Virus genome (UHGV): UHGV-1730466
Length of the DNA stretch: 14,875 bases
Direction: 5' to 3' (one strand)
Source of the DNA: a virus
A program made the position numbers and the translations under genes. The notes beneath the pieces are model-generated. The model worked only from the letters and a program-made list of their open reading frames with translations. It did not search any database and had not been told where the DNA came from. Below, piece after piece: positions 6,539 to 8,436 of the stretch; position 1 is the stretch's first letter; every line of letters begins with the position of its first letter.

Positions 6539-8436
6539 TCTTCGCCATATTTAGCGTGCGCAACCTTATAGTTTTCTTGCGCCCGATCTAATATTCGTTT
6601 GTTTAATATATTACCGTCTTCATCAACTAATACGGTAATCGTGCTACATTTGCAGTTGCTCGCAATTAATCCATTTGCTATCATTAAACCTGATAACTCC
6701 TGGAGATCATAAACATGACCAGAATAATAGCTAACAACAATGTCGATGACTTCATCAAAGAATACCTGTCCGGCACGAGTATCGATAATATCGCCTTGAT
6801 GTTTAACACAACCACGGTAGACGTTATCACTTCTATGAAAAGCGCCGGATTCAAGTCCATCTCTAACGCAGATAAAGCTATTGAAAAATATTTTACCGTT
6901 GACGAACTCTATGCCAGACACGTCGCCGGGGAAAGCATCCAATCCATAAGTAAACGCATCGGCTTTAGTAGGATTGCCATTTGCCGCTTGTTTGATAAGC
7001 ACGGCCTCCACTACAGAACTCGACAGGAAGGAGCGCTTGAACGGTACAAAAATCTCTCTGCGGACGAAAGACGGGCTGTTACTGAACCAGCTTTCACCAC
7101 AAGAAGAGGAAGCCGTGATAGCGCTGCTGTTATAGCCAAAAGAGCAAAACACAGGCGCTTTGATCGAGTTGGCATGTTTGAGCGCGAGATTATCGAGAGT
7201 CTCATTGCACATGGCATCTGGTGTGAAAACCAGTTCCCCATCGGCGGTTACAACATCGATATTTTTATCCATTCCCCCGCCGTCGCCGTGGAAATCTACA
7301 GCACTCACCCTTGCAGAGATAGACTTGCCGATATCAGAGAGAGAACTAAAAACATCCTCAATAGCGGGGTCAATCAATTGACGATCCAGATTAGTTACCC
7401 GCATCGTGTTTTTGATCTTACCGCTGTAAGCAACGGCATAATCTCCTTTGTTGACTTCTGCCGCCGGAATCAATCCGCGATTGGTCATAATGGGGTGATT
7501 AGGGGTAACGGTGAGATTCCTGCCACTTCTAGTCATTATCTTGATGACTTCCCCGCTGTAATGCGCTTTTGAACCAGCTAAAAACCTGCCGTGTACAACC
7601 GTTCCCGGCAGGTAACAGTTAATTGAATTAGGGGATCTGCTCCACCATTCGCGCTGCTCTTCTATGGTGTACGTTTTCCCGTGTCGCTGTGCGTGTGACA
7701 GCCTGGTAGTCGGTGACAATGCCGAAATATGCATCTGCATCGTGCGCAAATTAAGCTCATCCGATGCGGCCTCTGCCTCATCCATACGCGCTGTGCGTAA
7801 CGCTGTGCATATTTCAGTACGGGCAATACGTTTGCACCTGTATAGCGGCAATTGCGTTTCCTGCTGCAATGTACGCGCTATTTCGAGTGGGTTTAAGCCG
7901 CGGGCCATGCCTTCAGTTAATCGGCGGGCCATATCCTTCTTGATCTGTGCGGTAAGCCCGCGCATCTCTTCAAATACACGGGTACGGACCAGGGCAAGGC
8001 GTGTGCGATAGGTCTGACTGGTTAATACCGCCGACACTTCAGGGTAAGCCCTGGAATATGTGACTGACTGGTTAGCGAGGTTGGCATATTCCTGTGAAGT
8101 GCCTCGCTGATATGCCACCTTTACGTATTCCTGCCAGAACCAGAAGTTTTCCGGGTCTGTTAACTCGAATATTTCATCAATCATGTCGCTGGCGTCTTCC
8201 AGCAAATCATGTAATTCGTCGATGTAGATCTGGAAGGTGTATTTTTTATTAACAGCCAGGGTGTATTGTATTCTGTCCAGTATGGCGATATACGGATCCG
8301 CAACTTTCTTCAGGCAGGCTTTAAAACGCTTGATAGCACCAGACCTTAACTTCCCTGTCATGGTCGGGTCTTCGGTGTTAGATGGCATTATCGCGGCTGG
8401 AGGTATTCGCCTGATTATCTTCTTCACCCTCATCAT
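6529..8436 (-). CDS. Mu F-like (SPP1 gp7 family) minor head protein interrupted by an in-frame intein; 635-aa precursor, about 314 aa after predicted splicing
   Basis: N-extein ends ...TTRLSHAQRHGKTYTIEEQREWWSRSPNSIN and C-extein begins CKCSTITV, which together rebuild the Mu F-family D.R.R..H...GK ... PNC(R/K)C signature; the likely start is the second ATG (8433), 6 nt after AGGAGG. Confidence 0.75.
   Translation of the reverse strand: MMRVKKIIRRIPPAAIMPSNTEDPTMTGKLRSGAIKRFKACLKKVADPYIAILDRIQYTLAVNKKYTFQIYIDELHDLLEDASDMIDEIFELTDPENFWFWQEYVKVAYQRGTSQEYANLANQSVTYSRAYPEVSAVLTSQTYRTRLALVRTRVFEEMRGLTAQIKKDMARRLTEGMARGLNPLEIARTLQQETQLPLYRCKRIARTEICTALRTARMDEAEAASDELNLRTMQMHISALSPTTRLSHAQRHGKTYTIEEQREWWSRSPNSINCYLPGTVVHGRFLAGSKAHYSGEVIKIMTRSGRNLTVTPNHPIMTNRGLIPAAEVNKGDYAVAYSGKIKNTMRVTNLDRQLIDPAIEDVFSSLSDIGKSISARVSAVDFHGDGGGMDKNIDVVTADGELVFTPDAMCNETLDNLALKHANSIKAPVFCSFGYNSSAITASSSCGESWFSNSPSFVRREIFVPFKRSFLSSSVVEAVLIKQAANGNPTKADAFTYGLDAFPGDVSGIEFVNGKIFFNSFICVRDGLESGAFHRSDNVYRGCVKHQGDIIDTRAGQVFFDEVIDIVVSYYSGHVYDLQELSGLMIANGLIASNCKCSTITVLVDEDGNILNKRILDRAQENYKVAHAKYGEDWE
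6655..7617 (-). mobile_element. Intein, 321 aa, within the minor head protein gene
   Basis: Cys1 (codon 7617-7615) in CYLPGTVV (block A), LTVTPNHPIMT (block B, TxxH), HVYDLQELSG (block F), ANGLIASN (block G, terminal Asn at 6657-6655), +1 Cys; boundaries checked codon by codon. Confidence 0.7.
6715..7572 (+). CDS. Nested antisense ORF inside the intein: HTH plus DUF559/Vsr-like (PD-(D/E)xK) endonuclease candidate, 285 aa
   Basis: Two HTH-like segments (IDNIALMFNTTTVDVITSMKSAGF; ESIQSISKRIGFSRIAICRLFDKHGL); ENQFPIGGYNIDIFIHSPAVAVEIYSTHP aligns to the DUF559 core [29 protein letters not shown]; GGAG 8 nt before the ATG; possible promoter TTGCTC (6656-6661), 17-nt spacer, TATCAT (6679-6684). 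Confidence 0.5.
   Translation: MTRIIANNNVDDFIKEYLSGTSIDNIALMFNTTTVDVITSMKSAGFKSISNADKAIEKYFTVDELYARHVAGESIQSISKRIGFSRIAICRLFDKHGLHYRTRQEGALERYKNLSADERRAVTEPAFTTRRGSRDSAAVIAKRAKHRRFDRVGMFEREIIESLIAHGIWCENQFPIGGYNIDIFIHSPAVAVEIYSTHPCRDRLADIRERTKNILNSGVNQLTIQISYPHRVFDLTAVSNGIISFVDFCRRNQSAIGHNGVIRGNGEIPATSSHYLDDFPAVMRF

What the first reader, a model, noticed from the sequence alone, without database searches (positions are those of the whole stretch)
6655..7617. Intein inserted in the conserved NC(R/K)C motif of a Mu F-like minor head protein
The 635-aa minus-strand ORF carries, in one frame, an N-terminal Mu F-like domain, a Cys-initiated segment with Hint block A (CYLPGTVV) and block B (TPNHP), then block F (VYDL) and block G (ANGLIASN) followed by Cys, and a short C-extein. 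Removing residues 274-594 rejoins ...SPNSIN to CKCS..., rebuilding a PNC(R/K)C signature that I recall as the conserved C-terminal motif of this family. Inteins typically sit in the most conserved host motifs. The penultimate intein residue is Ser rather than His, which is less common.
Basis: partly seen in the sequence, partly recalled or inferred. Interest (0 to 1): 0.8.

Follow-up and report, generated by a model that had tools for sequence, protein, structure and literature searches.

The report
Intein hiding a backwards endonuclease gene
A phage head-assembly gene is interrupted by a self-splicing protein insert (an intein) whose middle is really a DNA-cutting enzyme gene written on the opposite DNA strand; this layout was first described in 2025 in phages of other bacteria, so here it is a new example, in an E. 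coli-type phage where it could be tested.

Summary
Window 6655-7617 (− strand) is a 321-codon class-1 intein (Cys274…Asn594, +1 Cys595) in a Mu F-like head morphogenesis gene (6529-8436). E. coli phage mEp010 carries the exact intein-less allele, …SPNSIN|CKCS….

- Among five close relatives, the intein's middle evolves neutrally in the sense frame (dN/dS 0.6-1.2).
- In the antisense frame the same stretch is under purifying selection (dN/dS 0.06-0.13).
- The splicing lobes and exteins show the reverse pattern.
- Both frames lack stop-generating codons across 291 codons.
- The endonuclease ATG is the complement of the block F His codon, which is CAT in 43 of 45 His-bearing relatives.
- All 89 related loci examined share the insertion site and the antisense layout.

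Intein-embedded "anti-sense VSR-like" homing endonucleases, including ones in minor capsid proteins, were reported for actinobacteriophages in a 2025 preprint (Gosselin et al.). This is therefore a new member of a known kind. Splicing, expression and cleavage are inferred, not shown.

The parts
6529..8436 (-). Mu F-like head morphogenesis precursor ORF (635 aa, stop included): N-extein + intein + C-extein
   Evidence: ORF list; Pfam Phage_Mu_F and Intein_splicing; PHROG 758 E 1.9e-113.
7618..8436 (-). N-extein (residues 1-273), ending …SPNSIN
   Evidence: Alignment with intein-less mEp010 allele. Sense dN/dS 0.02-0.05 against close relatives.
6655..7617 (-). Intein (residues 274-594; 321 aa): Cys1 … Ser-Asn, followed by +1 Cys595
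7423..7617 (-). N-terminal Hint lobe (intein residues 1-65), with block A Cys1 and block B T38-P-N-H41. Also read on the + strand as the C-terminal ~50 aa of the endonuclease (dual coding).
   Evidence: pLDDT above 90. Sense-synonymous changes exceed antisense-synonymous ones, but both are high at block B (0.40 / 0.25) and position-2 change is only 0.13. No position-2 changes among close relatives.
6766..7422 (-). Sense-frame filler of the intein (intein residues 66-284). It is kept free of stops but otherwise evolves near-neutrally in this lineage. Residues 84-119 (IEDVF…DFHGDG) show some sense-frame constraint across the wider family.
   Evidence: Sense dN/dS 0.6-1.2. pLDDT below 40 for residues 145-270 but 86-90 for 80-125. 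Zero TTA/CTA/TCA in the 291 sense codons under the antisense open frame. Sliding-frame test.
6655..6765 (-). C-terminal Hint lobe (intein residues 285-321): block F G-H-V-Y-D-L and block G …LIASN
   Evidence: pLDDT above 90. Sense-synonymous 0.41 against antisense-synonymous 0.07.
6532..6654 (-). C-extein (residues 595-635), starting CKCSTI…
   Evidence: Identical to mEp010 over all 126 nt, stop codon included. Completes the Pfam Mu_F model.
6715..7572 (+). Antisense homing-endonuclease gene (285 aa + TGA), codon-aligned with the intein frame
6702..6717 (+). Putative ribosome-binding site GGAG (6702-6705) and start ATG (6715-6717). The ATG is the complement of the block F His574 codon CAT; the GGAG is the complement of the D-L-Q-E codons.
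   Evidence: Sequence. The His codon is CAT in 43 of 45 His-bearing representatives, and a start codon sits at this spot in 47 of 57. An SD-like motif is present in 27 of 57. Function not tested.
6736..6999 (+). Two helix-turn-helix DNA-binding modules of the endonuclease (aa ~8-95)
   Evidence: Profile hits to tandem-HTH structures 2lvs (E 2.5e-6) and 8vd6. Pfam HTH_23/HTH_7/HTH_58 in family members. Helices in the AF2 model. Relatives carry 1 to 5 such modules.
7171..7503 (+). Vsr-like / PD-(D/E)XK-superfamily nuclease domain (aa ~153-263). E156 is nearly invariant; D182, E193 and R210 are invariant; H198 is mostly conserved.
7570..7572 (+). Endonuclease stop codon TGA, the complement of Ser289 codon TCA in the N-terminal Hint lobe
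   Evidence: Sequence. TCA at this column in 23 of 57 representatives.

Best explanation
The element is a mobile intein with two genes on the two strands of one 963-bp insert.

On the − strand, the late head-morphogenesis gene is read straight through the insert. The two Hint lobes (intein residues 1-65 and 285-321) fold together. They excise the whole 321-residue segment and join …SPNSIN to CKCS…, restoring the Mu F-like protein. The roughly 220 residues between the lobes act as a tolerated, largely disordered tether whose main requirement is to contain no stop codon.

On the + strand, the same DNA encodes a 285-aa protein with two HTH DNA-binding modules and a Vsr-like nuclease domain. This protein is most likely the intein's homing endonuclease. 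In a cell that also holds an intein-less allele (as in phages mEp010 and mEp021), it would cut at or near the AAC|TGC junction. Repair from the intein-bearing copy would then paste the insert in. Insertion splits the target, so the carrier is immune.

Shown here: the exact insertion, the Hint fold, the conserved antisense ORF, strand-specific purifying selection, mutual stop-codon avoidance and the Vsr-like fold.

Inferred: that splicing occurs, that the antisense gene is transcribed and translated, and that its product cleaves the empty site.
For: - **Conserved layout.** The antisense ORF is conserved and always codon-aligned antisense in 10 GenBank phages and in 79 of 79 IMG/VR loci. It is also seen in enterobacterial prophages, where NCBI annotates it as an HTH protein.
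- **Selection switches strand.** Against five relatives at 80-90% identity, N-extein differences by sense codon position are for example 4/1/40. In the intein middle they are 57/7/15 (Fisher p 5e-14). dN/dS in the middle is 0.6-1.2 in the sense frame and 0.06-0.13 in the antisense frame. The same switch appears in 58 representatives below 85% identity.
- **Stop avoidance.** There are no TTA/CTA/TCA codons among the 291 sense codons under the antisense frame. [quoted passage not shown] For the endonuclease frame, P is 6e-5 given its amino-acid composition.
- **Start codon.** The sense His codon in block F is CAT rather than CAC in 43 of 45 cases.
- **Intact target.** In mEp010 the sequence is identical from −33 to +126 nt around the junction.
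- **Precedent.** Gosselin et al. 2025 describe anti-sense VSR-like homing endonucleases in full inteins of actinophage minor capsid proteins.
Against: - No expression data exist. The promoter scan found one weak + strand sigma-70-like match, which overlaps the start codon (6701-6728), and promoter-like matches in the region were no more frequent than in shuffled sequence. No terminator was found. An SD-like motif is present in only 27 of 57 relatives.
- Antisense transcription would oppose a strongly expressed late operon.
- The active site is not a clean EDxHD motif. The last Asp is not evident and an invariant Arg210 takes a prominent place.
- Sequence-level similarity to solved nucleases is modest (E about 1e-4).
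- No cleavage, homing or splicing has been demonstrated for any member of this family.
- The intein was not found by megablast in 5,426 complete E. coli genomes, so spread in that host is limited. One draft E. coli assembly (GCA_023099005.1) does carry a copy 90% identical in protein sequence.
Confidence: 0.8

Rival explanations
1. Ordinary intein read only on the − strand. The middle would be an in-frame linker or a degenerate or novel endonuclease, and the + strand ORF a chance open frame of the kind common in the codon-aligned antisense frame.
For: Long antisense open frames do occur by chance in GC-rich relatives; Pseudomonas phage locus L003 has a 1055-codon antisense open frame. Some sense-frame motifs (IEDVF, DFHGD) are conserved across the family, and AF2 gives pLDDT 86-90 for intein residues 80-125.
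Against: The window is 47% GC and the open frame has P about 2e-4 or less. Sense dN/dS in the middle is 0.6-1.2 while antisense is 0.06-0.13. The antisense product has a confident Vsr-like fold and profile hits to nucleases and HTH domains, whereas sense residues 145-270 have pLDDT below 40. CAT is fixed at the start position.
Confidence: 0.03
2. The antisense gene is real and functional but is not, or is no longer, this intein's homing endonuclease. It could be a domesticated HTH regulator or nuclease serving the phage, for example in competition with co-infecting phages or in defence or anti-defence, that simply resides in the intein.
For: Homing has not been shown. The gene is under strong purifying selection even among very similar phages, which a purely selfish endonuclease near fixation would not need. 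Other free-standing nuclease genes sit in the same module, such as HNH_3 at 11298-11801. The active site deviates from EDxHD.
Against: Every one of 89 loci examined places the gene inside an intein at the same MuF site, and no free-standing copy was seen. Closely related phages (96% nt identity in the flanks) differ by presence or absence of the whole element with an intact target, the pattern expected for homing. One relative has a nonsense mutation in the endonuclease with the intein retained, as in the classical homing-cycle decay. Its nearest solved relative is a proven homing endonuclease (PMC3239194).
Confidence: 0.12
3. The insert no longer splices. MuF would function with a large internal insertion, or be made as a truncated or alternative product, so the element behaves as a fractured-gene-like or tolerated insertion rather than as an intein.
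For: Penultimate Ser instead of His. The Pfam Intein_splicing score is barely above its cut-off (36.0 against 35.8). An out-of-frame endonuclease insertion without splicing motifs is known in a phage methylase (PMC11855218).
Against: All splicing nucleophiles and block B/F/G residues are retained and mostly invariant or nearly so across 32-58 diverse homologues. The Hint lobes show sense-frame purifying selection. The C-extein is conserved and completes the Mu_F domain only after excision. The sense frame is open in 89 of 89 loci, so this is not a split arrangement.
Confidence: 0.04

Closest known systems
Inteins with an 'anti-sense VSR-like' homing endonuclease in actinobacteriophage minor capsid, terminase, DNA polymerase and thymidylate synthase genes (Gosselin, Arsenault & Gogarten, bioRxiv 10.1101/2025.01.02.630785)
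   Same: A full, contiguous intein whose endonuclease is a Vsr-like protein encoded on the opposite strand. The host includes the minor capsid protein (IPR006528, the MuF/SPP1 gp7 family). A long helical N-terminal region precedes the nuclease, and HHpred or profile searches link it to I-Bth0305I (3R3P). Gordonia phages Vivi2, Malisha and Angelicage carry homologues (about 28% identity) at the same N|C(R/K)C site.
   Different: This copy is in an mEp021-like enterobacterial phage. The family extends to phages of Vibrio, Pseudomonas, Cronobacter, Salmonella, Klebsiella, Edwardsiella and Idiomarinaceae, and to MAGs of several phyla. [quoted passage not shown] Here the ORF starts inside block F and runs through block B, so about 65 codons are dual-coding. 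I could not confirm which individual phages the preprint lists.
I-Bth0305I and the EDxHD / Vsr-like homing endonuclease family (Dassa et al. 2009, PMC2677866; Taylor et al. 2011, PMC3239194)
   Different: Those enzymes are encoded on the same strand, either in group I introns or free-standing between split-intein halves ('fractured genes'). Their DNA-binding modules are NUMODs, not resolvase-type HTHs. The final Asp of EDxHD is not evident here, and an invariant Arg210 appears instead. Sequence similarity is weak (E 1.2e-4).
Anti-sense LAGLIDADG endonuclease in the Synechocystis DnaX intein (Gorbalenya 1998; Gogarten 2002, as cited in the 2025 preprint)
   Same: Endonuclease ORF on the strand opposite to a contiguous intein.
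   Different: A different endonuclease family and a different host gene. Known to me only through the preprint's citation; not examined here.
Methylococcus capsulatus Mu-like prophage F (gp30) intein (Ward et al. 2004, PMC517821)
   Same: An intein in the Mu F head-assembly protein of a gammaproteobacterial prophage. Its splicing region was reported as most similar to archaeal IF-2 inteins, and the window's intein hits the same archaeal IF-2 model in NCBIfam.
   Different: It was described as lacking a recognisable endonuclease and probably immobile. Whether it carries the antisense gene was not tested here.
ShiLan out-of-frame HNH insertion in a phage methylase (Arsenault et al. 2025, PMC11855218)
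   Same: The host reading frame is kept open across an insertion whose real product is an endonuclease in another frame.
   Different: Same strand but a shifted frame, an HNH nuclease, and no splicing domain.

Membership tests
Intein (class 1, Hint domain) | In-frame insertion absent from close orthologues, at a conserved host motif | tested here: met
   mEp010 allele lacks exactly residues 274-594. The Mu_F Pfam model is completed only without the insert.
Intein (class 1, Hint domain) | N-terminal Cys/Ser, block B TxxH, C-terminal Asn, +1 Cys/Ser/Thr | tested here: met
   Cys274, T311-P-N-H314, Asn594, Cys595. T38, N40, H41 and N321 are invariant in 32 homologues. The penultimate residue is Ser, not His.
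Intein (class 1, Hint domain) | Hint fold | tested here: met
   [not shown]
Intein (class 1, Hint domain) | Protein splicing activity | not testable with these tools
   Inferred from conserved catalytic residues and from sense-frame purifying selection on both lobes and on the C-extein.
Phage Mu F / SPP1 gp7 head morphogenesis protein (PF04233) | Match to the family profile above the curated threshold | tested here: met
   45.3 bits with the intein and 54.7 bits for the intein-less form, against a cut-off of 29.6. PHROG 758 E 1.9e-113. Located between the portal and capsid genes.
Anti-sense VSR-like endonuclease inteins (Gosselin et al. 2025) | Endonuclease ORF on the strand opposite to a contiguous intein, between the splicing blocks | tested here: met
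   ORF 6715-7572 (+) lies inside intein 6655-7617 (−), with both frames open. Antisense dN/dS 0.06-0.13.
Anti-sense VSR-like endonuclease inteins (Gosselin et al. 2025) | Homology to the actinophage examples | tested here: inconclusive
   Gordonia phage MuF inteins share the site and an antisense homologue (about 28% identity, tblastn E 2e-16 to 6e-12). The preprint's own list of phages was not available to me.
EDxHD / Vsr-like homing endonucleases (I-Bth0305I) | Vsr-type nuclease fold | tested here: met
   [not shown]
EDxHD / Vsr-like homing endonucleases (I-Bth0305I) | Composite catalytic motif E-D-x-H-D | tested here: inconclusive
   D182, E193 and H198 align with the Asp, Glu and His of I-Bth0305I, the Asp and His being its D196 and H213. 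His198 is not universal, the last Asp was not identified, and R210 is invariant.
EDxHD / Vsr-like homing endonucleases (I-Bth0305I) | NUMOD-type N-terminal DNA-binding modules | tested here: not met
   The N-terminal region matches resolvase/homeodomain-type HTH families (HTH_7, HTH_23, HTH_58) and the tandem-HTH structure 2lvs.
EDxHD / Vsr-like homing endonucleases (I-Bth0305I) | Site-specific cleavage of the element-free allele | not testable with these tools
   The target is intact in mEp010. No biochemical data.
Fractured genes / split inteins with a free-standing endonuclease (Dassa et al. 2009) | Host gene and intein broken into two ORFs with the endonuclease gene between them | tested here: not met
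   The sense ORF is continuous through the insert in the window and in all 89 loci examined.

The most novel reading that the evidence does not exclude
This endonuclease clade may exist only as the mirror image of this one intein: an old, obligate two-strand partnership.

- Its start codon is carved out of splicing block F.
- Its C-terminal 50 residues are the complement of block B.
- A 36-codon stretch (sense IEDVF…DFHGDG, antisense R-x-K-x-I-L…V-A-V-E-I) is selected in both frames at once.

If so, the 'filler' of the intein is partly functional. The element would then be a natural case of long-term bidirectional coding, maintained across phages of at least Proteobacteria and Actinobacteria. 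It would not be a recent accident of a free-standing endonuclease landing backwards in an intein.
Probability: 0.35. Interest if true: 0.6.

Novelty: new member of a known kind. Interest (0 to 1): 0.45.

Why it matters
Inteins in Mu F-type proteins, and inteins whose endonuclease is written on the opposite strand, are both already on record, so the kind is not new. The case still has three uses.

**Annotation.** None of the nine GenBank phage records inspected annotates the antisense gene. At least one early MuF intein was called endonuclease-less. Antisense endonuclease genes are therefore probably overlooked systematically. In a search of 1.84 billion representative proteins, 790 clusters matched the profile at E ≤ 1e-30. 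Nearly all of the 150 best matched over their full length, though some hits rest on the HTH repeats alone.

**A measurable example of dual coding.** Purifying selection switches strand at defined points, both frames avoid each other's stop codons over 291 codons, and a synonymous choice in a catalytic block (His CAT) is fixed by the other strand's start codon.

**A tractable test system.** The window's phage is about 89% identical to cultured E. coli K-12 phages (mEp010, mEp013, mEp021 and others) that carry the intact empty site. Expression of an antisense endonuclease, its cleavage site, and homing and splicing of the element could therefore be tested directly in a standard host.

Tried and rejected
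- **Direct sequence searches of the antisense protein.** A phmmer search of the PDB gave only a chance hit, and single-sequence Pfam gave only a sub-threshold MTES_1575 match. A family profile and a structure model were needed.
- **Looking for the intein in E. coli.** Megablast of the intein against 5,426 complete E. coli genomes found nothing.
- **Expression signals.** The promoter/terminator scan found only one weak + strand promoter-like match, overlapping the start codon and within chance expectation, and no terminator. The eye-picked −10-like TATCAT at 6679-6684 has a poor −35 and is not conserved, so I make no claim about it.
- **Searching for free-standing relatives.**
  - P0060, an 836-aa top hit, turned out to be an HTH-repeat protein without a nuclease domain and unrelated to inteins. 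The raw counts therefore include HTH-only matches.
  - P0055, which looked free-standing in the gene calls, is also antisense inside a MuF intein.
  - The collection scans used peptide patterns that mirror block B, which biases them towards intein-embedded copies. 'No free-standing copy' is therefore weak evidence.
- **Bacterial genomes.** With the narrower alignment it returned only 7 loci, none from Methylococcus, so the 2004 MupF intein could not be checked.
- **Split-intein / fractured-gene reading.** Rejected because the sense frame is continuous everywhere.
- **Apparent decay in L070.** This was an artefact of my ORF tracing; the gene is intact.
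Full report
**1.

The − strand ORF 6529..8436 encodes 635 aa.
- Pfam finds Phage_Mu_F in residues 169-274 (E 1.6e-11) and Intein_splicing in 290-579 (36.0 bits, cut-off 35.8).
- PHROG 758 'head morphogenesis' scores E 1.9e-113.
- Megablast of 6400-8500 against GenBank phages finds seven E. coli phages of the mEp021 group. Each matches in two pieces that skip exactly the proposed intein.
- The mEp010 protein (314 aa) is 99% identical and reads …SPNSI-N-CKCSTI…. The insert is therefore residues 274-594 (nt 6655-7617), starting with Cys, ending Ser-Asn and followed by Cys.
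- The Mu_F Pfam model is matched to its last position only in the intein-less form (3-112 of 112, 54.7 bits, against 3-107 and 45.3 bits).

**2.

The ORF list shows a 285-aa ATG-initiated ORF on the + strand, 6715..7572, wholly inside the intein.
- Its codons are in register with the intein's codons. Both have low coordinates equal to 1 mod 3. A stop in one frame therefore corresponds to TTA, CTA or TCA in the other.
- tblastn of this protein finds 47 phage records from hosts in Vibrio, Pseudomonas, Cronobacter, Salmonella, Klebsiella, Edwardsiella, Idiomarinaceae and Gordonia, at 25-50% identity.
- In the nine records inspected, the match lies antisense to an annotated head-morphogenesis / MuF CDS and is itself unannotated.
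- All ten loci, window included, have an intein at the same site, xN|C…[S/H/R]N|C[K/R][C/S].
- A scan of IMG/VR returned 79 further loci. In 79 of 79 the codon-aligned − frame is open across the match and continues for 340-1167 codons. Nearly all of the 74 distinct sequences show the same junctions and the block B motif T[P/A]NHP.
- The same layout occurs in enterobacterial prophages, where NCBI sometimes calls the antisense gene 'helix-turn-helix domain-containing protein'. It also occurs on metagenomic contigs.
- A species-representative genome scan found it in Atlantibacter, Rhizobium and MAGs of Chloroflexi, Actinobacteria, Zixibacteria and Dormibacterota.

**3. Which strand is coding: both, in different places**

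(a) *Stop avoidance.* The 291 sense codons under the antisense open frame contain no TTA, CTA or TCA. The remaining 30 intein codons have 6, the exteins 16 of 314, and sixteen other genes of the window 106 of 3646. This gives P = 1.9e-4 at the background rate. The endonuclease frame likewise has none (P = 6e-5 given its Leu and Ser content).

(b) *Distant comparisons.* An alignment of 58 representatives below 85% identity was built on the sense protein, which biases it towards the sense frame. The fraction of differing codon pairs that are synonymous was then compared between frames:

| Region (precursor residues) | Sense-synonymous | Antisense-synonymous |
|---|---|---|
| Exteins | 0.17 | 0.05 |
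| N-terminal Hint lobe | 0.26-0.40 | 0.04-0.25 |
| C-terminal Hint lobe | 0.31-0.41 | 0.05-0.07 |
| Most of 333-560 | 0.06-0.13 | 0.16-0.30 |

- Block B (309-320) is constrained in both frames (0.40 and 0.25; position-2 change only 0.13).
- Residues 369-392 are about equal (0.15-0.19 against 0.12-0.16).

(c) *Close comparisons.* A profile search found five relatives of the window's own element at 80-90% protein identity, and their DNA was retrieved.
- All have an intact 285-aa antisense ORF.
- Differences by sense codon position are, for window against L108, 4/1/40 in the N-extein but 57/7/15 in residues 333-560 (Fisher p = 5e-14).
- Nei-Gojobori dN/dS is 0.02-0.05 for the N-extein. For the intein middle it is 0.61-1.17 read in the sense frame and 0.06-0.13 read in the antisense frame.
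- In the N-terminal Hint lobe there are no position-2 changes, and positions 1 and 3 change equally, the signature of double constraint.

**4. What the antisense gene encodes**

- A 15-member alignment has invariant Y179-N180, D182, A191, E193 and R210, with E156 and V192 nearly invariant.
- Its profile hits the tandem-HTH structure 2lvs (E 2.5e-6). It also hits the DUF559-type 'endonuclease-like' protein 3hrl (E 1.1e-4) and the catalytic domain of the homing endonuclease I-Bth0305I, 3r3p (E 1.2e-4).
- Pfam gives HTH_23/HTH_7/HTH_58 and MTES_1575 (9 of 15), DUF559 (3) and Vsr (1).
- D182, E193 and H198 align with the Asp, Glu and His of I-Bth0305I, the Asp and His being its D196 and H213. The final Asp of the EDxHD motif is not apparent, and the DNA-binding modules are HTHs rather than NUMODs.
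- Relatives carry one to five HTH modules.
- An exhaustive HMMER search of 1.84 billion representatives found 790 clusters at E ≤ 1e-30. Nearly all of the best 150 matched over their full length, but some hits rest on the HTH repeats alone.

**5. Anatomy of the overlap**

- The endonuclease ATG (6715-6717) is the complement of His574 (CAT) in block F, G-H-V-Y-D-L. A GGAG lies 9 nt upstream and is the complement of the D-L-Q-E codons.
- Of 45 representatives with His at this position, 43 use CAT and 2 use CAC. A start codon occupies this exact spot in 47 of 57.
- The stop TGA (7570-7572) is the complement of Ser289 TCA.
- The conserved C-terminal motif G-V-I-R-G-N-G is the complement of block B T-V-T-P-N-H-P.
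- The endonuclease ORF therefore overlaps about 45 codons of the N-terminal lobe and about 20 of the C-terminal lobe.
- The sense reading of intein residues 145-270 is predicted to be disordered (pLDDT below 40). Residues 80-125 are predicted with pLDDT 86-90 and show some sense-frame constraint across the wider family. I leave this unexplained.

**6. Evidence bearing on mobility**

- The window is about 89% identical to the mEp phages over 61-75% of its length. In the MuF gene it differs from mEp010 at 35 positions of the N-extein, but at none from −33 to +126 nt around the junction. The presumptive target is therefore intact in cultured relatives.
- One IMG/VR relative (L026) has a GAA to TAA nonsense mutation in the endonuclease, which reads as a harmless TTA Leu in the sense frame. 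Its near-twin L027 is intact. This is the decay step of a homing cycle.
- No expression signal could be established. No cleavage, splicing or homing data exist.

**7. Comparison with the literature**

- Ward et al. 2004 reported an intein in the F protein of a Methylococcus Mu-like prophage. They described it as similar to archaeal IF-2 inteins and 'lacking a recognizable endonuclease' (PMC517821). The window's intein hits the same IF-2 model.
- Dassa et al. 2009 defined the Vsr-like homing endonucleases in fractured genes and introns (PMC2677866). Taylor et al. 2011 characterised I-Bth0305I (PMC3239194).
- Gosselin, Arsenault and Gogarten (bioRxiv 10.1101/2025.01.02.630785) surveyed actinobacteriophages. 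They reported anti-sense VSR-like endonucleases inside full inteins. They also noted that minor-capsid inteins carried only non-canonical endonucleases, and that an anti-sense LAGLIDADG case has been known since 1998.
- The architecture is therefore known. The present case is a member from an enterobacterial phage.
- The analysis here adds four things: the selection evidence, the start-in-block-F and block-B overlap, the single shared insertion site, and the breadth of distribution.

**8. Verdict**

- The most likely mechanism is a splicing-competent intein mobilised by an endonuclease encoded on its antisense strand.
- Confidence is about 0.8 overall: about 0.95 that the antisense gene is real and encodes a Vsr-like nuclease, and about 0.7 that it is the homing enzyme.
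- Novelty: new member of a known kind.
- Interest is moderate. The value lies in a clean dual-coding example and in an E. coli-tractable system for testing how an antisense endonuclease is expressed and drives intein homing.

Noticed in passing
window 11298-11801 (− strand): A 167-aa HNH_3 endonuclease gene (Pfam E 3.5e-22) sits between the small terminase (11814-12314) and large terminase (9827-11314) genes and overlaps the terL start by 17 nt. Among relatives it is annotated in mEp013 and mEp515 but is not listed under the match for mEp010, mEp044 or mEp554. It may therefore be a second, free-standing mobile endonuclease in the same module.
   Followed up: partly
L026 551-1390 compared with L027 1501-2340: Two near-identical IMG/VR loci differ at 16 of 840 nt. 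L026 has a GAA to TAA nonsense codon in the HTH region of the antisense endonuclease, while the sense MuF-intein frame stays open (TTA Leu). This is an endonuclease-dead, intein-retained allele.
   Followed up: partly
[not shown]
   Followed up: partly
Literature: PMC517821; window residues 290-336: The 2004 M. capsulatus MuF intein was described as endonuclease-less and similar to archaeal IF-2 inteins. The window's intein hits the archaeal IF-2 NCBIfam model (E 2.3e-8). That intein may belong to this family and carry an overlooked antisense endonuclease. Its sequence could not be retrieved.
   Followed up: no
P0029, P0255, P0266: Homologous inteins also occur in a Phage_min_cap2 (PF06152) protein at an …HPN|C… site and in portal-MuF fusion proteins (PF04860 + PF04233). 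This hints at host-gene variation around the same short target motif.
   Followed up: no
L016 1788-3107; P0055: One relative of the antisense endonuclease carries five tandem HTH modules (439 aa) and still lies antisense in a MuF intein whose sense frame is open for the whole length. The number of HTH modules varies from 1 to 5 across the family.
   Followed up: partly
L013 4001-4702 and L011 4001-4852: Gene callers sometimes annotate the antisense endonuclease instead of the MuF-intein gene: NCBI record CP181762.1, and a metagenomic contig where the sense ORF is cut by the contig end. Either gene can therefore vanish from an annotation depending on the caller.
   Followed up: no
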